Source: Candidatus Hydrogenedens sp.
Lineage (GTDB): Bacteria; Hydrogenedentota; Hydrogenedentia; Hydrogenedentales; Hydrogenedentaceae
Assembly: GCA_049968235.1 (NCBI GenBank)
Contig: JBMFRC010000033.1
Coordinates: forward strand, 1-22,070
Direction: 5' to 3'
DNA: 22,070 nucleotides
Shown here: piece after piece, positions 2,909 through 18,412 of the stretch
Position numbering within the stretch: position 1 is the stretch's first letter
Layout of the letters: every line of letters starts with the position of its first letter
The notes under the pieces: model-generated
Databases searched by the model: none
The model's input: only the letters and a program-made list of their open reading frames with translations
What the model was told of the DNA's origin: nothing
Translations under genes and position numbers: made by a program

Positions 2909-3405
2909 ATCACTACCTCCTGATTAAATATCTTCATCTCAAATTAATATATCACGAAATATCACAAAATAAAAATTTTTTAATAGGAATCACGATATAA
3001 TAAAAACCAAATGTAAAGAAGCTTACAAAAAACAAACCATAGATTTTTAAATTGTTATATAAAAAAATTCTATTTTTAATGTATAACTAAAAATCTTTTT
3101 CTTTCTAAATTAAAGTAAAAATACTTTGCATTTTTTAAATTTTACAAAGAGAAATCCATATTTTTGCAAACAAGCCAACTTGCAAAATTATCATTATTAT
3201 CATTATGCAGATATAAAATATTACATTTATGTGTATTTTTTATTTATTTATAAAAAAATAAGGTATTTTTATAAAAAAATTGCCTTAAAACTTAATATTT
3301 ATTACATAATGGAATTATTAAACATATATTTTGTGTTGATTTTATACAATAATGTATGTTAATATATACATATTATTTTCAAATAATTTTTTCGGAGTTA
3401 CTAAA

Positions 3406-6400
3406 ATGCAGAAAGAACCTCACCAACAAAAAACTTTATATGCCCCTTTCTTTGAACATGATGCCTGTGGCGTGGGATTTATTGTAAATATTGATGGGAA
3501 GAGAACTCATCAATTAGTGAAAGATGCCCTTCGTATATTGGTAAATCTTACCCATCGCGGTGCATGTGGGTGCGACCCTGAAACGGGTGATGGTTGTGGT
3601 ATTTTATTTCATATTCCTCATCGTTTTTTTGAGAAGCAATCCGATAGTTTAGGTTTTGATTTACCTTCTCCGGGGCAATATGGGATAGGAATGGTTTTTC
3701 TTCCAGGAGACAATCAATTAAGAAGTGTTTGCAAAGAAATGTTAAAACAGACTATTTTGGAAGAGGGTCAGGGATTTTTAGGTTGGCGCGAGGTTCCACG
3801 AAATTCTCAATGTATTGGCTGGCTTGCCCGTTCTAACGAGCCCATTATTGAACAAATATTTATAAAAAATGTAACCTGCCCGGATATTGAATCTTTTGAA
3901 CGCAAACTATTTATCATTCGTAAGTCTGCTTCTCATAAAATTCGACAATTTTTGAAAGAGCAAAAAAATCTTTTTTATATAACAAGTATGTCTGCGAGGA
4001 CAATTGTATATAAGGGTCTATTTTTACCTGAAGTCATGGATAAATATTACGAAGATTTAGCAGACCCTGAAGTAGAGAGTGCTTTAGCGATTATTCATCA
4101 GCGGTATAGTACCAACACACTTCCCAGCTGGCAATTAGCACAACCATTTCGTTTTCTTGCTCACAATGGAGAAATTAATACCCTGCGAGGGAATATCAAT
4201 CTTATGTGTTCGCGTGAATCGGATTTGAAAAGCCCTCTTTATGGAGATGATATAAAGAAACTATTTCCTATTTTAACAGAGGGAGCCAGTGACTCTGCCA
4301 TTTTTGACAATGCTTTTGAATTGCTCGTTCGGGGAGGTCGTAGCATTGCTCATTCCATGATGATGATGATACCTGAACCCTGGAGTCATCACGAAAGTAT
4401 GCCGGATTTTAAGAAGGCTTTCTATGAATTCCATGCATGTAAGATGGAACCCTGGGATGGACCCGCATGTATGGCTTTTACAGATGGAGTACAGATAGGA
4501 GCCGTTCTTGACCGTAACGGACTGCGTCCGGCTCGCTACTGGATTACCACAGACCAGCAAGTTATTATGGCTTCTGAAGTGGGAGTTTTAGACATACCAC
4601 AGGAAAAAATTGTAAAGAAATGGCGATTGCAACCGGGTCGTATGTTCCTTGTGGACCTCAATGAAAAACGAATTATTGAAGATGATGAAATAAAAGAGAC
4701 CTTAGCCAACAGGAAACCTTATCGTGCATGGCTCAGTTTAAACCGTATTATTTTCCCGCAAGAAGTACTGGAGACAAGACCTACAACAGAATTAGTTCCA
4801 CTTCGTAAAAGGCAAAAAATTTTTGGTTATACAGAAGAGGATATCTCGCTTTTGCTCAAGCCAATGGCAGAAACAGGGGCAGAACCTGTGGGTTCAATGG
4901 GGAATGATGTTCCTTTAGCAGTTCTTTCAGAACGACCCCAATTATTATTTAATTATTTCAAACAGTTATTTGCCCAGGTCACAAATCCGCCTTTAGACCC
5001 CATACGCGAAGAAATTGTTATGTCTCTCGAAACGGACATTGGTCGGGAATATAACCTTTTAGATGAAACTCCTGAAGATTGCCAGATGATACATCTACAT
5101 TCTCCGATTCTTACCAATGCACAGGTAACTTATATTCGCAATTTAAAGAAAAAAGGACATCGGGCAGAATCTATCAGTACATTATTCTCAGTAAAGGAAG
5201 GTATTCCGGGCTTTCTAAATGCCATTGACCGAATTTGTAAAGAAGCCGAAAAATATGTGGATAATGGGGCTACCGTTTTAATTCTTTCGGACCGTGGAGC
5301 AGGACTACATCATGCACCCCTTCCCAGTTTATTAGCCACAGGTGCGATTCATCATCATCTTGTTCGTGTTCACAAACGGACTCGCTGTGGAATTGTTGTT
5401 GAGAGTGGCGAACCTCGTGAAGTGATGCATTTTGCCCTGTTGTGTGGATATGGCGCCGGTGCTATTAATCCTTATCTCGCTTTTGAAACTATCTCGGAAG
5501 GTATTGAGGAAGGGAAAATTGTTGAAGAATATCCCGGTAAAGCCCATAAAAAATATATTAAAGCCATTGAAAAAGGGTTATTAAAAACTATGTCGAAAAT
5601 GGGTATTTCTACCCTCCAAAGTTATCGATGTGCTCAGATTTTTGAAGCGTTAGGTCTAAGTCAGGAGGTAATCGACCGCTGTTTCACAGGCACACCTTCC
5701 CGGATAGGGGGATTAGACCTTGAAGATATAGCACGGGAAACCTTAATGCGTCATGAGATGGCTTATAATCCGTTAAAATTCCGTGAAAACGAGTTAGATA
5801 TTGGCGGGGCGTATCGCTGGCGACAGAGAGGTGAGTTCCATCAATGGAATCCGGAGACTATTTCTCTTATCCAGCATGCTACTCGATTAAACAGTTGGCA
5901 GAAATATCAGCAATTTGCAGAAGAAGTTAATAATCGAAATCGGACTTTTGCAACACTTCGCGGACTACTTAAATTTAAGAAAGGAAACCCTATACCCTTA
6001 GAGGAAGTTGAACCTGCTTCTGAAATTGTAAAACGGTTCTGTACAGGGGCTATGTCCTATGGTTCTATTAGTCAGGAAGCCCATGAGAATCTTGCTCTTG
6101 CCATGAATCGTATTGGTGGAAGAAGTAATACGGGAGAAGGAGGTGAAGACCCCAAACGATTCATCCCGGAACCTAACGGTGATAGCAAACGCAGTGCAAT
6201 TAAGCAAGTAGCCTCTGGAAGATTTGGTGTAACTAATGAATACCTTGTCAATGCGGATGAATTACAAATAAAGATGGCTCAGGGAGCTAAACCAGGAGAA
6301 GGAGGACAGTTACCAGGGCATAAAGTATACGAAAATATCGCTAAAGTTCGATATTCGACACCGGGCGTGGAACTGATTTCCCCTCCACCACACCATGATA

Positions 6401-7953: not shown

Positions 7954-9444
7954 ATGTTTCCTGAAAAATCAAAAGGTTTCATGGTATATAAAAGGGAATT
8001 GGGTCCCGAAGACCCTCCCCAGGAACGAATAAAACATTTTCGTGAATTTCATCATTCTCTACCGGAAGAAAAAATTCGACAGCAGGCATATCGCTGTATG
8101 AATTGTGGTGTTCCATTCTGTCATCATGGCTGTCCTCTGGGCAATCAAATTCCCGATTTTAATGATCTGGTAAAAGATGCTGATTGGAAACGGGCATTGG
8201 AAGTACTACATTCCACGAACAATTTTCCGGAATTTACAGGTAGGGTTTGCCCTGCTCCCTGTGAAACTTCTTGTATTTTAGGAATTAATGAACCTCCGGT
8301 AACCATTGAACAAATTGAATATGAAATTGCAGAGCGTGGATGGCGTGAAGGATGGATTAAACCGCACCCCCCCGAGCAGCGAACTGGGAAACGCGTTGCT
8401 ATTATAGGTTCAGGACCCAGTGGTCTGGCATCTGCTCAACAACTCAATCGAGCAGGTCATTATGTAGATGTATTTGAAAGAGCGGATGAACCCGGCGGTT
8501 TGTTAATGTATGGAATTCCCGGATTTAAATTGGATAAATCCATTGTTTGGAGAAGAATTAATCAAATTATAGATGAAGGGGTAACCTTTAATTGTTCTTC
8601 TGAAGTAGGGAAAAATATACCGGTAGAACAATTACTGACATATGATGCGGTTTTATTTACGATAGGTTCAACAATTGCACGGACCTTCACAAGTATGAAT
8701 ATTCCCGGTTCTTCCCTTGCAGGTATCCATACCGCAATGGACTTTCTTACACAAAGCACACGAAGAGTATTGGGGAAAAAAATAGATGGGAAAGAAATCT
8801 TAGCCACAAATAAAAATGTTATCGTTATTGGAGGTGGAGACACAGGTTCCGATTGTATTGGGACAAGCATTCGGCAGGGATGTAAATCTGTTGTGAATCT
8901 TGAACTTTTACCGCGTCCCCCGTTAGAAAGAACGGGAGACAATCTCTGGCCTCAATGGCCCATGATACTCCGCACATCGTCCAGTCATGAGGAAGGAGGA
9001 GAACGATTATTCAGCGTTTCTACGAAAGCCTTTGAAGGAGATGAACGCGGTCATGTGAAAGCCATTCATCTGGTCCGTGTAGAATGGTATACAGATGAAA
9101 ATGGACAAAAACGAATGCGGGAAATTCCTGGCTCGGACATGAAATTACCCTGTGAATTGGTTCTCCTTGCGATGGGCTTTGTTGCACCAGAATCAGATAT
9201 ATTTGTTGAAAAATTAGGGATAGAACTTTGTACTACTCGCTTTGGAAAAGCCATTAAAACAGACCCTAAATATATGACCACACGCCGTGGATTTTTCGCA
9301 GCAGGCGATGCGCGTAGAGGACAATCGCTTGTTGTTTGGGCAATCTCTGAGGGAAGAGAATCCGCTCGTTGTATTGATGAATATCTCATGGGTAGAACAT
9401 ATCTGCATGCGAAGAACTCCTGGGGCTATTCTTGCCAGAAATAA
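7954..9444 (+). CDS. gltD: Glutamate synthase small (NAD(P)H-dependent) subunit
   Basis: 496 aa. It sits 12 nt after gltB with RBS AAGGGAG. It has two Cys clusters ('CMNCGVPFCHHGCP', 'CPAPCETSC'), the Rossmann FAD/NAD motifs 'AIIGSGPSGLASA' and 'VIVIGGGDTGSD', and a C-terminal 'FAAGD' motif. Confidence 0.93.
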   Translation: MFPEKSKGFMVYKRELGPEDPPQERIKHFREFHHSLPEEKIRQQAYRCMNCGVPFCHHGCPLGNQIPDFNDLVKDADWKRALEVLHSTNNFPEFTGRVCPAPCETSCILGINEPPVTIEQIEYEIAERGWREGWIKPHPPEQRTGKRVAIIGSGPSGLASAQQLNRAGHYVDVFERADEPGGLLMYGIPGFKLDKSIVWRRINQIIDEGVTFNCSSEVGKNIPVEQLLTYDAVLFTIGSTIARTFTSMNIPGSSLAGIHTAMDFLTQSTRRVLGKKIDGKEILATNKNVIVIGGGDTGSDCIGTSIRQGCKSVVNLELLPRPPLERTGDNLWPQWPMILRTSSSHEEGGERLFSVSTKAFEGDERGHVKAIHLVRVEWYTDENGQKRMREIPGSDMKLPCELVLLAMGFVAPESDIFVEKLGIELCTTRFGKAIKTDPKYMTTRRGFFAAGDARRGQSLVVWAISEGRESARCIDEYLMGRTYLHAKNSWGYSCQK

Positions 9445-9456
9445 GAAATTTAAGAT

Positions 9457-10314
9457 TTATCTTTTTTGTTCAAGGGCAGAACGGTATTGATTAATTCGTT
9501 CGAGCCATGTGGTAGTGAGGGTAAGCGGGTATACAGTATATCGGGGAGAAGTAGCAGGTTTTGTTTGAAATTCTTTTTCTGCTTCGGGAATCATCTGTCT
9601 GTAACTTATATCTGGTGGGGTGAATTTTGCATTAGAATTTTTAGCGTTAGTAATAAAACGAATAGAACGATTTATATCACTAGCACTTCTTTTCGTCTTT
9701 ACAAGGGTTTTGGGGTCTGTTCCCCACTCATATAAAATCACAGGTCCATTGTTTCCGGTAGCGACACCTGCCATAGATAAATCTGTCCCACTGCGATAAT
9801 CCATCATTGCATCCAGCCAATCAAAGGGAATTCCATAATAATAATCATACGCACCGAATACCCTACCTTCCGAGAAGCCATCATTATATCCATCTGTAAA
9901 ACCCCCATCTAACCATTCCACATGCTTATCTGTTTTGAGGAATGCCTTCCAGTTTGCCTGGTAAGCACAATCATAACCTTCACTAAAACCGATAGTAAAA
10001 GCATAGTCATATTCCACAAAGTAACCATCATTATATGCGAACCATAAACCGTCGTAATACCCTGCATCATAAGGAGGATTTTCTACCTGCGGTATTTGTT
10101 CCCCCTGATAGTATATTGCTCCGCCATTTACAGTATCATAACTATCAAAAAAACCAGTCCAATAGTATTCGTCCTGTGCAAAACCATCATTAAAACCGCG
10201 TTCATATTCTGCATTATCAGTAATTATGGGACACCCTATAAATGCAACTATAATGAGCGGTAAAATTCCTAAATACAGTCTCCGCATTTTGCTCTTTCTG
10301 CTTTCCTGTTTCAT
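9457..10314 (-). CDS. Putative lipoprotein with aromatic/Asp-Gly repeats (hypothetical)
   Basis: The ORF extends to 10368. I place the start at ATG 10314 (MKQESRKSKMRRLYLGILPLIIVAFIGC...) because AAGGAA lies 6 nt upstream. The N-terminus has a positively charged n-region, a hydrophobic h-region and a lipobox-like 'FIGC'. The mature part holds at least 6 copies of G[F/Y]xDG[F/Y/L] and is extremely Tyr/Trp/Asp/Gly-rich. I recognise no homology. It is co-oriented with, and 35 nt downstream of, the 849-aa gene. Confidence 0.6.
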   Translation of the reverse strand: MKQESRKSKMRRLYLGILPLIIVAFIGCPIITDNAEYERGFNDGFAQDEYYWTGFFDSYDTVNGGAIYYQGEQIPQVENPPYDAGYYDGLWFAYNDGYFVEYDYAFTIGFSEGYDCAYQANWKAFLKTDKHVEWLDGGFTDGYNDGFSEGRVFGAYDYYYGIPFDWLDAMMDYRSGTDLSMAGVATGNNGPVILYEWGTDPKTLVKTKRSASDINRSIRFITNAKNSNAKFTPPDISYRQMIPEAEKEFQTKPATSPRYTVYPLTLTTTWLERINQYRSALEQKR

Positions 10315-10348
10315 AATACATTCCTTATATAAAAATTGTTTTAATCTT

Positions 10349-12898
10349 TTATCGTATCCCTCTTCCACCCAGAGAAGACCTGCCGTTTGAGAATCCTGGT
10401 GATTGCCTCTGGAAAGAAGGGGTGCTCGGTGTAGCGAAGGAAGGTGTATTTACTTTCGGTACGGAAAAACTTGATGGAGCGGAATTGCGTTCTATCGGAG
10501 GGGAACTCATTGTCGTAGCAGAGGATGACGGAGGAGTTACAGAGAAACTCCTAGTACTCAAACTGTTTCTATTGAATGATGGAAAAGAAGAAATGGAGTT
10601 TTTATTTGTATTTCTTGAAATCCCGAAAGATGTATTTCCTCTCGGGACATCAGGGACAGAGAAAGACATATCTTTCTGAGGGGGAAGTGTTCGAACGGAA
10701 ATCCCGGAGTTTCCGCTAATGGATGTTCTTTCTGGGAAGATATTCACATTGGCTTCTCTCAAGGTTCCTCTTGAAAATGTTCCTGCTCCTCTATTACCAT
10801 CTGTTGAACGAATTTGAAATTCGGGAACAGATGTGCGTTGAGGTGTTTCATGTTGATTTCTCACAGAGCCATAAGTCCCAATATCTGTTGGCGTTTGTTT
10901 CATATTATCCCAATTTAAGCCGGAACCTCTTGTATTTCCGCGACTACCCGGATTATTACGGTCTGTTGGTATAGAACGCGGAGTAGTATTGTCTCTATCT
11001 CGATTTGTTGTTCCTGACCCTGAATCATTCCGGGGAGTTGTTCGTGTAGGGCTTGTCGTTGAACCACCTCCGGATGGATCATACTCACGGGGTTTCCGTT
11101 CACCATTCATATCCAGTCTTGAAAAAGATGGGGATTCAATCCCTTTGCGGGAAACTCCCTCTGATTGATTGGGTATTTCGGAGAAGGCATTTCTTATTCC
11201 TCTGTTTACTGCAGGTGGGTTTAGAACTCTTGTCGGAGATGATTCCGAACGAAGTGTATTCCTAACATCAGCACTTCGGACGGGAGAACCTATATTTTCA
11301 CGGACAGATTGTATTTGTGTATTTCGCTCTATAGCCCGAGTAAATCCGGTGTCAATTTCTTTACCTCGAATTGAACTACGGTCCGTTGATGAACCTCTTT
11401 GCGAAAGGACTTCGGGAGCGAAACGGGTAGCAGTTGCCTCTGGAGAGGTGGTGTTTAATCTTACCTCACGGAAAGAACTGGAACGCTCATTTAACATAGC
11501 GGTCCGCATAGCGGAAGAAGGCATTCCTGTTTGACTTCGGAAACCTTGTGTCGAGGTTCTTCGTGTAAAATAACTTTCCAATTCTTCTACACGGGCTCGT
11601 GCAAGTATCCCTGAATTATTATAGTTAGCAATACCTCGAATAGTTCTCGGCGGATTATAATCGCGAACCATCGGCATTGAGTTCTGGTAAGGGATGCGTA
11701 TCCTTTGAGAAGGATAGCGTTCTATATTCCAGACATAAACATTTGTTGGATTGTTTATAATGTAATTAACAACTGTAGGTGCCACAGGTGCGATATAGTA
11801 AGGAGATGTATAAACATAAGTTGCAGGGACATAGGAACAGGCACCTACATAAAAGTTTAGACCACCCACCGCAAAACTAACTCCTGTGGAAACTCGAACG
11901 GGCCGGCAATAAAAGTCTACGGGTGTCCAAATAAAATAATCACCACAACGAACCGTAGCCACCCACGCTGGACTCCATACCGGATCATATCCCCAAACCC
12001 AACCATAACTATCATAATAGACCCAACGACCATAGTGTGTGGTGATATATCCGAAAGGATAGGTCTCTACCCAAACGGAACCTATGGGTGATACATAAGT
12101 CCAATATCCTGTCCGATATGGGACATAATTAATAACGACGGTTGGTCTCCAATAATATCGTTCATCAATAAGAACCCAATCTCCATATCGTGATAATTCT
12201 GTATATCCGATTGTCCGATTTGTAACTTCCACATATTTCGGGGGTGTTTTCACGGGAGCAGAGAGTAATTCGGACCGACCTTGATTCCAGCGGTCAAACG
12301 AATCCATTTCAGTTGTTGCAAAGGATACTACTTCAGAGGGCAAATATCCGACATCAACCCAGCATTGTTTACCACTACTTACAACTTCGTTACCTCCGCG
12401 TTCTGTTGTTACATACACCTTTCCCCAGCGTGTCGAAACTCGTGTTGTTCCACTTTCTCCAATGTCTATACGAACACAGGTATCCGGGTCAAAGGTAATG
12501 TTACACGATGGAGTAGTAAAGCGAACGGTCCCAGAACTGCGAAGTACTCTTTCAACATAAAAAGAACCTGTTATACCATATATGGATAGTTCCGGGGAAA
12601 TCTTAACTATTTTTGCTTTAGAAGCATCTGCCATACGGAAGAAGACACCTTCCGGAAATTCAATCTCCGTGCTACCTCCTTTATCCACCCACAATGTATC
12701 CCCTGTTAGCACAAGTGTATTTAAGGTGGCACGGCTCCAATCTTCATCATCCATCCCCCGAATAAGCGTACTTTCGCCATCGTAACTTACCCGCCCATGC
12801 AAAGGGAAGTCTGTATCTGCAAATACCCAGAATGTAGACACGAGTGCCATATTGAATGTAATTACGGCACAAAATTTTGCTATCTTAAAATATTTCAT
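10349..12898 (-). CDS. Secreted FecR-domain protein with Trp/Tyr-rich domain and long Arg/Ser/Thr-rich disordered C-terminal region (hypothetical)
   Basis: A single uninterrupted 849-codon ORF. The N-terminal signal peptide is 'MKYFKIAKFCAVITFNMALVSTFWVFA|DTD'. Residues roughly 30-200 look like a FecR-type beta-sandwich domain. Residues roughly 230-400 are a W/Y-rich segment ('HYGRWVYYDSYGWVWGYDPVWSPAW'). The last roughly 410 aa are low-complexity and rich in R/S/T/N/P/G. Coding status rests on ORF length, far beyond chance, even in the biased tail. Confidence 0.8.
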   Translation of the reverse strand: MKYFKIAKFCAVITFNMALVSTFWVFADTDFPLHGRVSYDGESTLIRGMDDEDWSRATLNTLVLTGDTLWVDKGGSTEIEFPEGVFFRMADASKAKIVKISPELSIYGITGSFYVERVLRSSGTVRFTTPSCNITFDPDTCVRIDIGESGTTRVSTRWGKVYVTTERGGNEVVSSGKQCWVDVGYLPSEVVSFATTEMDSFDRWNQGRSELLSAPVKTPPKYVEVTNRTIGYTELSRYGDWVLIDERYYWRPTVVINYVPYRTGYWTYVSPIGSVWVETYPFGYITTHYGRWVYYDSYGWVWGYDPVWSPAWVATVRCGDYFIWTPVDFYCRPVRVSTGVSFAVGGLNFYVGACSYVPATYVYTSPYYIAPVAPTVVNYIINNPTNVYVWNIERYPSQRIRIPYQNSMPMVRDYNPPRTIRGIANYNNSGILARARVEELESYFTRRTSTQGFRSQTGMPSSAMRTAMLNERSSSFREVRLNTTSPEATATRFAPEVLSQRGSSTDRSSIRGKEIDTGFTRAIERNTQIQSVRENIGSPVRSADVRNTLRSESSPTRVLNPPAVNRGIRNAFSEIPNQSEGVSRKGIESPSFSRLDMNGERKPREYDPSGGGSTTSPTRTTPRNDSGSGTTNRDRDNTTPRSIPTDRNNPGSRGNTRGSGLNWDNMKQTPTDIGTYGSVRNQHETPQRTSVPEFQIRSTDGNRGAGTFSRGTLREANVNIFPERTSISGNSGISVRTLPPQKDMSFSVPDVPRGNTSFGISRNTNKNSISSFPSFNRNSLSTRSFSVTPPSSSATTMSSPPIERNSAPSSFSVPKVNTPSFATPSTPSFQRQSPGFSNGRSSLGGRGIR

Positions 12899-13141
12899 AT
12901 ATTTGCCCTTTCTATAGGATATAGTTACATATTCAATTGTTAATCTCTTTATCCATTAATAATAAACGAAATACAAATTACGAATATTCAGTGGAAGTAA
13001 TGTATAATCCTTCTTCTTACACCAAAATTCCTCATGCAAAATTACTTAGATAGATAATTTCAAAAAACATAAGTGATTGTATTATCATTTTACCATTATT
13101 AAACATATTAAGATGTAATTCGTGATAAAGGTAGTTTTAAG

Positions 13142-17248: not shown

Positions 17249-18412
17249 ATGCGATATAGAATCTTAAGTTTCACAATCTGTTTTTTTATTTCATCCATTA
17301 TCTTTTGCTCATTTATACATGCTCAAACATTACCTCAGGGAAAAATAAAGGATATTTCTCAATTATGGCAAAAAAATTATAAAGATATATTAAGTGGCTT
17401 CGGGAATATGTATAACTTTCATGTCCTGCATGAACCCGGAGCAGAATATCCCTTTAGGGCATGGTTCTCTGGCTGGGCGTTTGAAGATTGTAACAGAAAT
17501 ATACCCAATTTTAAAGGTTGTGATGCTATCTTTACGGCACGAGCCAAAAAATTGGAGGGGACATGGGAAGTATATGCGGGTGATGATACATGGGATAATA
17601 CAGGAAATCCGAAGTTATGGAAACCTCTCTTTAGCCCCTCCGGTACTTATTTTGACGAATGGCATAATGGAGACCCTTCTGTAATTAAAGTGGGGGAAAA
17701 ATATTATCTGGCATATAGTGCAACTGGACATGATAAAGATCGTATTCCTGCCGACAATCCCAATGATACTGATGGCAGTTTTTACTGTATTATGGGAGCC
17801 ATATCAGAAGATGGGATACACTGGAACCGTTCCGAAAAGCCAATATTAGAGTATACTAACGAGTTAGGCGGTAAAGACAAAACAGGTGATGTTACTTTAT
17901 GGGGCACTTATCATCGACCTTCAATTATATATGAAGATGGCAGATTTAAAATCTGGTTCGATTACTGGACACCTCGTGGAACTGCTATGGGCTATGCGGA
18001 AAATCAAGGGGACTTTTTAAAATCGGAAGACTGGAAATTTATTCGTATAGGAGAAAATCCCTGTATATGGGAATTTCCCAACCCCGATGTTATAAAAGTA
18101 GATGATGTATATTATGCTTATGCAGACCCCGGAGGATACGAGAATCATGAATGGAAAGGACGAAAAATCACAGAAGGCATATCTCGCAATGGTATGGACT
18201 GGCAAATCACAGGATATATAGAACCTGAGTCGGATACACCTGCAACACATGTTCCTGAAGCCCTTGTAATGAGGAAAAATGATAAGAACCTTATCTATCT
18301 TTTCTATTCCTGTCAAATTGGCGGAGAGCCTTCTAAATATAATTTTCGATATAATCGAATCCGTTATATGTACCGCGAAGTCCCACCATCTGAAATAAAA
18401 AAAGGAATATAA
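17249..18412 (+). CDS. Secreted beta-propeller glycoside hydrolase-like protein (GH43/GH130-like clan; family uncertain)
   Basis: Signal peptide 'MRYRILSFTICFFISSIIFCSFIHA|QT'. It has repeated blade-like motifs: 'GDPSVIKVGEKYYLAYSATG', 'GAISEDGIHWNRSEKPIL', 'HRPSIIYEDGRFKIWFD' and 'PDVIKVDDVYYAYAD'. The family assignment is by motif resemblance only. Confidence 0.5.
   Translation: MRYRILSFTICFFISSIIFCSFIHAQTLPQGKIKDISQLWQKNYKDILSGFGNMYNFHVLHEPGAEYPFRAWFSGWAFEDCNRNIPNFKGCDAIFTARAKKLEGTWEVYAGDDTWDNTGNPKLWKPLFSPSGTYFDEWHNGDPSVIKVGEKYYLAYSATGHDKDRIPADNPNDTDGSFYCIMGAISEDGIHWNRSEKPILEYTNELGGKDKTGDVTLWGTYHRPSIIYEDGRFKIWFDYWTPRGTAMGYAENQGDFLKSEDWKFIRIGENPCIWEFPNPDVIKVDDVYYAYADPGGYENHEWKGRKITEGISRNGMDWQITGYIEPESDTPATHVPEALVMRKNDKNLIYLFYSCQIGGEPSKYNFRYNRIRYMYREVPPSEIKKGI

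What the first reader, a model, noticed from the sequence alone, without database searches (positions are those of the whole stretch)
9457..10314. Novel repeat lipoprotein (G[F/Y]xDG[F/Y] x at least 6) co-operonic with the FecR/IDR protein
The mature portion is dominated by short aromatic/acidic repeats (GFNDGF, GYYDGL, YNDGYF, GFSEGY, GFTDGYNDGF, AYDYYYG). About 35% of the residues are Y/F/W/D/G. Dx[DN]G-type spacing can bind Ca2+, and aromatic-rich repeats often bind glycans. I recognise no described family. The gene lies 35 nt downstream of the 849-aa gene on the same strand, with a good RBS at the internal ATG (10314). The longer ORF to 10368 would overlap the upstream gene's last 20 nt, so the true start is uncertain. 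Together the two genes look like an uncharacterised cell-envelope module.
Basis: partly seen in the sequence, partly recalled or inferred. Interest (0 to 1): 0.55.

Follow-up and report, generated by a model that had tools for sequence, protein, structure and literature searches.

The report
Glycine-aromatic helical lipoprotein, Hydrogenedentota-specific
This gene encodes a real, strongly conserved membrane-anchored lipoprotein of an undescribed family found almost only in the candidate phylum Hydrogenedentota; its "repeats" are glycine-every-fourth-residue helices that build a very acidic, aromatic-rich helical domain with no known structural relative, and it nearly always sits just after a secreted FecR/DUF6600 protein that is probably its partner.

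Summary
The ORF at 9457..10314 (-) encodes a 285-aa protein with a lipobox. Gly27 and Cys28 are invariant in 123 homologues. The G[FY]x[DE]G motifs occur 5 times, against 0.01 expected in shuffles, and are 90-100% conserved. No Pfam, NCBIfam or PDB sequence match exists. An exhaustive profile search of 1.84 billion representatives found only 51 cluster representatives. Relatives occur in 100 GTDB species genomes; 57 of the 80 listed are labelled Hydrogenedentota.

The FecR/DUF6600 gene lies directly upstream on the same strand in 69 of 69 loci with enough DNA. Its disordered tail is Arg-rich and net positive in 55 of 55 orthologues. The lipoprotein core has a median net charge of -32.

Most likely (inferred) the lipoprotein tethers this secreted partner to a membrane. 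Function is untested.

The parts
9457..10314 (-). Lipoprotein CDS, 285 aa plus stop. It founds an undescribed family that is almost entirely Hydrogenedentota-labelled.
10322..10326 (-). Shine-Dalgarno-like AAGGA, 7 nt upstream of the ATG at 10314
   Evidence: read directly
10231..10314 (-). Signal peptide (residues 1-27; n-region K2, R6, K7, K9, R11, R12; hydrophobic 13-26) plus the lipobox Cys28 codon (10231..10233)
   Evidence: Gly27 and Cys28 invariant in 123 sequences
9715..10209 (-). Conserved acidic, aromatic core domain (residues 36-200). Mean pairwise identity is 65.5% and median net charge is -32 across the family.
10135..10218 (-). Helices H33-45 and H48-60, with repeat EYERGFNDGFAQD (G40, G44; F41, F45)
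9964..10074 (-). Predicted 37-residue central helix H81-117. It carries nine consecutive small-xxx-small tetrads (G85, G89, A93, G97, E/A101, A105, G109, G113, A117) with an aromatic residue at x1.
9838..9903 (-). Helix H139-159 with five strict GxxxG tetrads (G138, 142, 146, 150, 154): GFTDGYNDGFSEGRVFGAYD
9460..9714 (-). C-terminal region, residues 201-285. Residues 201-235 are a variable basic linker with pLDDT 60-71. Residues 240-285 are a conserved segment with helix 270-284 and conserved R219, R239, R258, R273, W270 and Y277.
10349..12898 (-). Upstream partner gene, 849 aa: signal peptide, FecR-like N-terminal region, DUF6600 domain and Arg-rich disordered tail
11915..12205 (-). DUF6600 domain (PF20245) of the partner, residues 232-328
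   Evidence: (E 7.5e-19)
10352..11548 (-). Partner's C-terminal low-complexity tail, residues 451-849. Composition is S 17%, R 11.8%, T 10.5%, P 8.8%; net charge +22.
12916..12943 (-). Weak sigma-70-like promoter match (9 of 12) just upstream of the partner gene. No terminator-like site lies between the two genes.
   Evidence: consensus match only, fewer sites found than in shuffles

Best explanation
The gene encodes a lipoprotein processed by signal peptidase II and exported out of the cytoplasm. Its mature part is a compact all-alpha domain.

The G[FY]x[DE]G 'repeats' are period-4 glycine or small-residue repeats. A small residue sits at position 0, Tyr or Phe at x1 and Asp or Glu at x3. These repeats run along three helices, including one 37-residue helix. 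The glycine stripes most likely let the helices pack very closely, with the aromatic side chains forming most of the core. The surface is left strongly acidic.

The gene is co-transcribed with the upstream gene. That gene encodes a secreted protein with no membrane anchor of its own: a FecR-like domain, a DUF6600 domain and an Arg-rich disordered tail. The lipoprotein most likely binds this protein and tethers it to a membrane. Together they would form a two-protein cell-envelope module specific to Hydrogenedentota.

A plausible contact is between the acidic, aromatic lipoprotein domain and the Arg-rich tail, or the aromatic DUF6600 domain.

Shown: the lipobox, an extracytoplasmic location supported by domain fusions, the helical fold prediction, family restriction, and gene-pair conservation. 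Inferred: lipidation itself, physical binding, which membrane is involved, and the cellular role.
For: Lipobox: Gly27 and Cys28 are invariant in 123 homologues. The consensus is L-[AST]-G-C-P, with a K/R n-region and a hydrophobic h-region. 111 of 123 pass a PROSITE-type rule.

Extracytoplasmic location: family members carry PKD x4, BACON, Ig, PASTA or Big_5 domains inserted between the lipidated Cys and the core.

Fold: AF2 with 123 sequences gives mean pLDDT 90.6 and pTM 0.85. All five models score 88-90.6. The predicted helices are 33-45, 48-60, 81-117, 122-128, 139-159, 166-174 and 270-284.

Repeat register: the small and aromatic positions are 90-100% conserved. The core has 24% Y/F/W, 21% G/A, 15% aliphatic, 21% D/E and 1.9% K/R.

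Pairing: the partner lies immediately upstream on the same strand in 69 of 69 GTDB loci with enough upstream DNA. The same holds in L001, L004, L006/7 and L091. The median gap is 28 nt, and 34 nt here, with no terminator-like site between the genes. No third gene is conserved among the 80 loci.

Partner: it has a signal-peptide-like N-terminus and no lipobox. Its tail is net positive in 55 of 55 orthologues, with a median of +28. Pooled composition is R 15.6% against K 0.6%, independent of GC over 39-72%. The lipoprotein core has net charge -22 to -43 in all 123 members.

Precedent: glycine repeats with Y/F at x1 and E/Q at x3 are proposed or shown to mediate helix-helix association in FliH (PMC2674601) and Yae1-Lto1 (PMC4523923).
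Against: No direct evidence of binding exists.

Charge covariation between the lipoprotein core and the partner tail is weak and not significant (rho -0.26, p 0.14, n 33).

The pair is split in at least two places. L002 has the lipoprotein without the partner. L092 has the partner without the lipoprotein within 4 kb.

DUF6600 proteins outside the phylum, some of which also carry FecR, manage without such a lipoprotein.

The conserved Arg residues of the lipoprotein's own C-terminal segment may neutralise part of the acidic surface within the molecule.
Confidence: 0.45

Rival explanations
1. It is a stand-alone, high-capacity cation-binding envelope protein for Ca2+, Mg2+ or metals. Clustered surface carboxylates would bind the ions, as in calsequestrin, rather than defined Dx[DN]G loops. 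The neighbouring gene would be only loosely related in function.
For: The core net charge is -22 to -43 in all 123 members, with D 14.7% and E 6.2%.
Against: The acidic residues sit at fixed, 94-100% conserved helix positions (D88, D96, E112, D141, D145, E149). They lie in helices with pLDDT above 95 and not in loops. There is no EF-hand or RTX Pfam match, even at E of 10 or below. Bulk ion binders usually tolerate sequence drift, yet this core is 65% identical across a phylum. The obligate gene pairing is left unexplained.
Confidence: 0.15
2. It is a glycan- or peptidoglycan-binding lipoprotein. Exposed Tyr, Phe and Trp residues would stack on sugars.
For: The core is 24% aromatic. Some members add PASTA, BACON, PKD, Ig or Big_5 modules, which are common in cell-wall-facing or surface proteins.
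Against: The conserved aromatic residues occupy x1 beside the glycine stripe. With only 15% aliphatic residues they are needed to form the hydrophobic core. There is no similarity to any CBM, lectin or other solved fold. The added modules are sporadic and not part of the core family.
Confidence: 0.15
3. It is a component of a FecR-type trans-envelope signalling pathway, in which the lipoprotein modulates an anti-sigma-like sensor.
For: Orthologues of the upstream protein hit PF04773 FecR, and NCBI names some of them 'FecR domain-containing protein'.
Against: The partner starts with a signal-peptide-like N-terminus directly followed by the FecR-like region, leaving no room for a cytoplasmic anti-sigma domain. 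No ECF sigma factor or TonB-dependent receptor is conserved in the 80 loci; only the two genes are conserved. The window protein itself does not reach PF04773.
Confidence: 0.05
4. It is a periplasmic holdase for the partner. The acidic domain would shield the Arg-rich tail only during export or assembly and would not act as a permanent tether.
For: The charge complementarity is the same as for the best explanation. The short gap suggests coupled expression.
Against: A lipid anchor and spacer-domain fusions fit a positioned structural subunit better than a transient chaperone. Nothing here distinguishes the two computationally.
Confidence: 0.1

Closest known systems
FliH / YscL glycine repeats, AxxxG(xxxG)mxxxA (Trost & Moore 2009, PMC2674601)
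   Same: Both are soluble helices with a small residue at every fourth position. Tyr or Phe is favoured at x1 and an acidic or amide residue at x3. E. coli FliH has GYQAGIAEGRQQGHKQGYQEGLAQGLEQG. Here the sequences are GYYDGLWFAYNDGYFVEYDYAFTIGFSEGYDCA and GFTDGYNDGFSEGRVFG.
   Different: There is no homology: hhalign probability is 0.7% against E. coli FliH and there is no Pfam hit. FliH is cytoplasmic, is a regulator of the type III export ATPase, and uses Glu/Gln where this family uses Asp. This protein is an exported lipoprotein with three repeat helices in one globular domain.
Yae1-Lto1 deca-GX3 motif (Pfam Yae1_N PF09811; Paul et al. 2015, PMC4523923)
   Same: Both share G-[YF]-x-[ED]-G style period-4 repeats. 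In Yae1-Lto1 the glycines are required for complex formation between two repeat-bearing proteins.
   Different: Those proteins are eukaryotic cytosolic Fe-S assembly adaptors. The query has no PF09811 hit, and only 1 of 39 family members reaches E of 0.056. The longest strict Gly run here is 5 tetrads, or 9 if Ala and Glu are counted.
GxxxG / small-xxx-small transmembrane helix packing motifs (such as glycophorin A)
FecR + DUF6600 proteins of other phyla (P0219, P0220, P0222)
   Same: They share the domain pair of the upstream partner.
   Different: In the three loci examined outside the phylum there is no downstream lipoprotein of this family. The lipoprotein partner is a lineage-specific addition.

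Membership tests
Bacterial lipoprotein (Lgt/LspA substrate; PROSITE PS51257-type rule, recalled from memory) | Lipobox [LVI..][ASTVI..][GAS]-C, with Cys at position 15-35 | tested here: met
   The query has F25-I26-G27-C28. Gly and Cys are invariant in 123 of 123 sequences, with L at -3 in 81 and A/S/T at -2 in 104.
Bacterial lipoprotein (Lgt/LspA substrate; PROSITE PS51257-type rule, recalled from memory) | Positively charged n-region and uncharged hydrophobic h-region before the lipobox | tested here: met
   K2, R6, K7, K9, R11 and R12 are followed by LYLGILPLIIVAFI. The median Kyte-Doolittle score of the h-region is 2.1 across the family. 111 of 123 pass the full rule.
Bacterial lipoprotein (Lgt/LspA substrate; PROSITE PS51257-type rule, recalled from memory) | Actual diacylglyceryl modification and signal peptidase II cleavage | not testable with these tools
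   This needs palmitate labelling or a globomycin assay. SignalP and LipoP were not available.
Yae1_N / deca-GX3 (PF09811) | Match to the family HMM at the gathering score | tested here: not met
   There is no hit for the query, even at E of 10 or below. 1 of 39 members reaches E of 0.056.
Yae1_N / deca-GX3 (PF09811) | About ten consecutive GX3 units | tested here: not met
   The longest strict GxxxG run is 5 (G138 to G154).
FliH / YscL (type III export regulator) | Sequence or profile homology to FliH | tested here: not met
   hhalign of the family profile against E. coli FliH gives probability 0.7%, and the aligned region lies outside the repeats. There is no Pfam hit.
FliH / YscL (type III export regulator) | AxxxG(xxxG)mxxxA repeat with Y/F at x1 and an acidic or amide residue at x3 | tested here: met
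   The comparison is with PMC2674601. This is a motif-level resemblance only.
EF-hand / RTX-type Ca2+-binding Dx[DN]G loop proteins | The motif lies in a loop or beta-roll turn, and the protein matches the family HMM | tested here: not met
   The motifs lie in helices with pLDDT above 95. There is no Pfam match at E of 10 or below.
Beta-solenoid / beta-propeller repeat proteins | A predominantly beta repeat fold | tested here: not met
   The model is all-alpha apart from bridges of 2 residues or fewer.
DUF6600 (PF20245), upstream partner | HMM match above the gathering score | tested here: met
   68.2 bits against a cut-off of 27, residues 232-328. A re-scan of the sub-fragment gave 72.3 bits.
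FecR (PF04773), upstream partner | HMM match to the FecR domain | tested here: inconclusive
   The window protein has no hit at E of 10 or below. Orthologues P0186, P0189, P0198 and P0200, and the more distant relatives P0219 and P0220, carry precomputed PF04773 hits.

The most novel reading that the evidence does not exclude
The pair is a cell-envelope device unique to Hydrogenedentota. A lipid-anchored, aromatic-cored 'soluble glycine-zipper' domain with a new fold would capture the Arg-rich, Lys-free disordered tail of the secreted FecR/DUF6600 protein. Binding would occur through multivalent Arg-carboxylate and Arg-aromatic contacts. The result would be a tethered disordered layer or meshwork in the periplasm or on the cell surface.
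Probability: 0.12. Interest if true: 0.7.

Novelty: new variant of a known kind. Interest (0 to 1): 0.5.

Why it matters
Here one two-gene unit is kept together in essentially every genome examined. The lipoprotein core averages 65% pairwise identity across the phylum, which implies a constrained and probably important envelope function.

Structurally, the family extends long period-4 glycine repeats with aromatic x1 residues. These were previously discussed for the cytoplasmic proteins FliH/YscL and Yae1-Lto1. Here they appear in an exported globular domain whose core seems built mainly from Tyr, Phe and Trp packed against Gly and Ala. No solved structural relative was found.

The family also gives a first testable partner for the uncharacterised DUF6600 family. 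It is a clean candidate for a new Pfam entry and for structure determination.

Tried and rejected
- Pfam and NCBIfam scans of the whole protein and of repeat fragments, up to E of 10, gave nothing.
- A profile search of PDB sequences gave nothing.
- An exhaustive HMMER profile search of 1.84 billion representatives found only 51 hits, all from the same family, and no distant relatives.
- The first AF2 run with 39 sequences was poor (pLDDT 61.8). It was superseded by the 123-sequence run.
- Internal repeat detection with hhalign on sub-alignments found only 8-12-residue matches. There is therefore no larger duplicated unit.
- The FliH homology test was negative.
- A search for a third conserved neighbour found none. 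A 52-locus cluster lies antisense on the partner gene and is most likely a shadow ORF. A Redoxin gene lies downstream in only 23 of 80 loci.
- The charge covariation test was not significant.
- A literature search for DUF6600 returned 0 papers.
- An Rfam scan of the window gave no hits.
- The promoter and terminator scan was uninformative. It found fewer promoter-like sites than in shuffles.

Full report
**1. The observation**

The window is from a Candidatus Hydrogenedens MAG. The product of 9457..10314 (-) is 100% identical to NCBI protein ACP5UA_13755, which is annotated as hypothetical.

The alternative GTG at 10368 would put 45 residues before the lipobox Cys. The family median is 26, and the ATG gives 27.

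G[FY]x[DE]G[FYLW] occurs 5 times against 0.01 expected from shuffles of the mature sequence. GxxxG occurs 8 times against 1.95. Y/F/W/D/G make up 36.4% of the mature protein and 51% of residues 31-180.

**2. A real, conserved, compact family**

- The word-indexed search gave 478 homologues. The top 120 all have at least 49% identity over about 81-100% of the query (all but two at 87% or more), and almost all are unnamed or labelled Hydrogenedentes.
- A profile of 39 members was searched exhaustively against 1.84 billion cluster representatives. It found only 51 hits, all of the same family or fragments of it. No distant relatives were detected.
- In the GTDB species-representative genomes, 100 species encode a relative. 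Of the 80 loci listed, 57 are labelled Hydrogenedentota, Hydrogenedentales or Hydrogenedens. The rest are labelled 'uncultured bacterium', 'uncultured Nitrospirales/Nitrospiraceae', one 'FCB group' and one 'Bacteroidetes'. I suspect these are labelling problems but did not test this.
- There is no Pfam, NCBIfam or PDB sequence match, even for repeat fragments at E of 10 or below.

**3. Lipoprotein status and location**

In 123 aligned members, Gly27 and Cys28 are invariant and Pro29 is present in 121. Position -3 is Leu in 81. Position -2 is Ala, Ser or Thr in 104.

A PROSITE-type lipobox rule, recalled from memory, was applied together with an n-region K/R requirement. 111 of 123 pass. The failures are mostly N-terminally truncated gene calls.

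Several members have extra domains inserted between the Cys and the conserved core: four PKD domains (P0122), BACON (P0128, P0129), Ig (P0126), PASTA (P0073, P0133 and others) and Big_5 (P0053). These are extracytoplasmic modules. The core domain therefore works outside the cytoplasm, held at a distance from its lipid anchor. Lipidation itself, and whether the anchor is in the inner or outer membrane, were not testable.

**4. What the repeats are**

A first AF2 run with 39 sequences was weak (pLDDT 61.8). With 123 sequences the model is confident. Mean pLDDT is 90.6 and pTM is 0.85, and all five models score 88-90.6.

The model is all-alpha. The helices are 33-45, 48-60, 81-117, 122-128, 139-159, 166-174, 243-248 and 270-284. 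Only residues 201-235 are of low confidence.

The motifs are therefore not loops, beta-solenoid rungs or propeller blades. Read in register, they are period-4 small-residue repeats:

| Helix | Position 0 (small) | Position x1 | Conservation |
|---|---|---|---|
| 81-117 | G85, G89, A93, G97, A/E101, A105, G109, G113, A117 | Y86, V/L90, Y94, Y98, Y102, F106, F110, Y114 | nearly all 90-100% |
| 139-159 | G138, G142, G146, G150, G154 | see text | see text |
| 33-45 | G40, G44 | F41, F45 | see text |

The x3 positions are conserved Asp or Glu (D88, D96, E112, D141, D145, E149). Profile self-comparison finds only 8-12-residue matches, so there is no larger duplicated unit.

Across the family the core (residues 36-200) has this composition:

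| Residue(s) | Percent |
|---|---|
| D | 14.7 |
| G | 14.3 |
| Y | 13.0 |
| F | 7.5 |
| W | 3.7 |
| L+I+V+M | 14.8 |
| K+R | 1.9 |

The median net charge is -32, with a range of -43 to -22. Mean pairwise identity is 65.5% in the core against 35% in the C-terminal part. With so few aliphatic residues, the hydrophobic core must be built largely from aromatic side chains packed against Gly and Ala. This is an inference, because the model coordinates could not be inspected.

**5. Comparison with known folds and motifs**

At motif level the closest things are two sets of glycine repeats:

- FliH/YscL. Trost and Moore report Tyr or Phe at x1 in more than 45% of GxxxG units, and Glu, Gln or Ala at x3. 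They propose helix-helix association (PMC2674601).
- The deca-GX3 motif of Yae1 and Lto1. Its glycines are needed for heterodimer formation (PMC4523923).

Membership of either family was tested and failed. There is no PF09811 hit for the query, and only 1 of 39 members reaches E of 0.056. hhalign of the family profile against E. coli FliH gives probability 0.7%. The family works like a glycine-repeat helix protein but belongs to neither known family.

**6. The gene pair**

The upstream 849-aa protein has four parts:

- a signal-peptide-like N-terminus,
- a conserved N-terminal region,
- a DUF6600 domain (68 bits, residues 232-328),
- a tail of about 400 residues rich in S, R, T and P.

The window protein does not itself reach PF04773. 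Several orthologues do, and NCBI names some of them 'FecR domain-containing protein'.

Evidence for a conserved pair:

- In the 80 GTDB loci, an orthologue lies immediately upstream on the same strand in 69. The other 11 have less than 1.2 kb of upstream DNA, so the count is 69 of 69 informative loci.
- The pair is also intact in L001, L004, L006/7 and the divergent L091.
- The median gap is 28 nt.
- No terminator-like site separates the genes here.
- Clustering all flanking ORFs shows that only these two genes are conserved. A Redoxin gene follows in 23 of 80 loci. A 52-locus cluster lies antisense on the partner gene and looks like a shadow ORF.

Exceptions exist. L002/L003 have the lipoprotein without the partner. 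L092 has a partner orthologue with no lipoprotein within 4 kb. DUF6600 proteins outside the phylum, some of which also carry FecR, have no such neighbour.

**7. Mechanism**

The partner has no anchor of its own. The lipoprotein does. The two are always adjacent and closely spaced. The simplest reading is that the lipoprotein binds and tethers the partner.

The charge complementarity is striking. The partner's tail is net positive in 55 of 55 orthologues, with a median of +28. Its pooled composition is R 15.6% against K 0.6%. Arg content is uncorrelated with genomic GC over 39-72%, so it is selected rather than compositional. Every lipoprotein core is strongly acidic and aromatic.

However, charge covariation across 33 pairs is weak and not significant (rho -0.26, p 0.14). 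No complex prediction could be run. I therefore put about 0.45 on the whole statement. I put about 0.85-0.9 on the sub-claims 'exported lipoprotein of a new family' and 'repeats are helical glycine repeats'.

The rivals are bulk cation binding, glycan or peptidoglycan binding, FecR-type signalling and a transient holdase. Each is listed with its evidence in the rival explanations.

**8. Verdict**

Its 'novel lipoprotein in a conserved envelope pair' reading is supported. Its Ca2+-loop, beta-solenoid and propeller ideas are contradicted by a confident helical model.

The finding is a new, nearly phylum-restricted protein family with an unusual composition, an apparently new fold and a fixed partner. 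Its function is still unknown. It uses known building blocks (a signal peptidase II lipoprotein and glycine-repeat helices) in a new arrangement. I rate it 'new variant of a known kind', with interest 0.5.

Noticed in passing
window 10352..11548 (-), and orthologues in L008-L087: The partner's tail of about 400 aa is Arg-rich and almost free of Lys. It has R 11.8% and K about 1.8% here, in a 40% GC genome. Pooled over orthologues it has R 15.6% and K 0.6%. Arg content does not correlate with GC over 39-72%. The reason for Arg-only basicity in an exported disordered region is unexplained.
   Followed up: partly
P0122, P0128, P0129, P0126, P0073/P0133, P0053 (family members elsewhere): Some family members insert PKD x4, BACON, Ig, PASTA or Big_5 domains between the lipobox Cys and the conserved core. 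The core may therefore be spaced away from the membrane in some lineages.
   Followed up: partly
L001 8983..9564 and 22 other related loci: A Redoxin/AhpC-TSA gene lies just downstream of the lipoprotein on the same strand in 23 of 80 related loci. In this window the downstream neighbour is instead a convergent gltD-like gene.
   Followed up: no
L002 6001..6903; L092 4001..6217: There are two exceptions to the pairing. One is a lipoprotein next to PSCyt/PSD1 and DUF1501 genes with no partner. The other is a partner orthologue followed by a 101-aa membrane-like ORF with no lipoprotein within 4 kb. Whether these genomes keep both genes elsewhere is unknown.
   Followed up: partly
L011, L014, L017, L021, L024 and others: About 14 MAGs carrying the pair are labelled uncultured Nitrospirales or Nitrospiraceae. 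One is labelled Bacteroidetes and one FCB group. Their sequences nest among Hydrogenedentota-labelled ones, so mislabelling is likely, but this was not tested.
   Followed up: no
window 17249..18412 (+): This 387-aa ORF has no Pfam match at E of 1e-5 or below. It lies between a GFO/IDH/MocA oxidoreductase gene and a D-Ala-D-Ala ligase gene.
   Followed up: no
window 2909..3351: This AT-rich gap of about 440 nt lies upstream of the glutamate synthase large-subunit gene. GC is 0.29 in the 3001-4000 bin. No Rfam family matched at the gathering threshold.
   Followed up: partly
window 9444..9457: The lipoprotein gene and the gltD-like gene (7954..9444, +) converge, with only 12 nt between their stop codons. 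No terminator-like hairpin was found there.
   Followed up: partly
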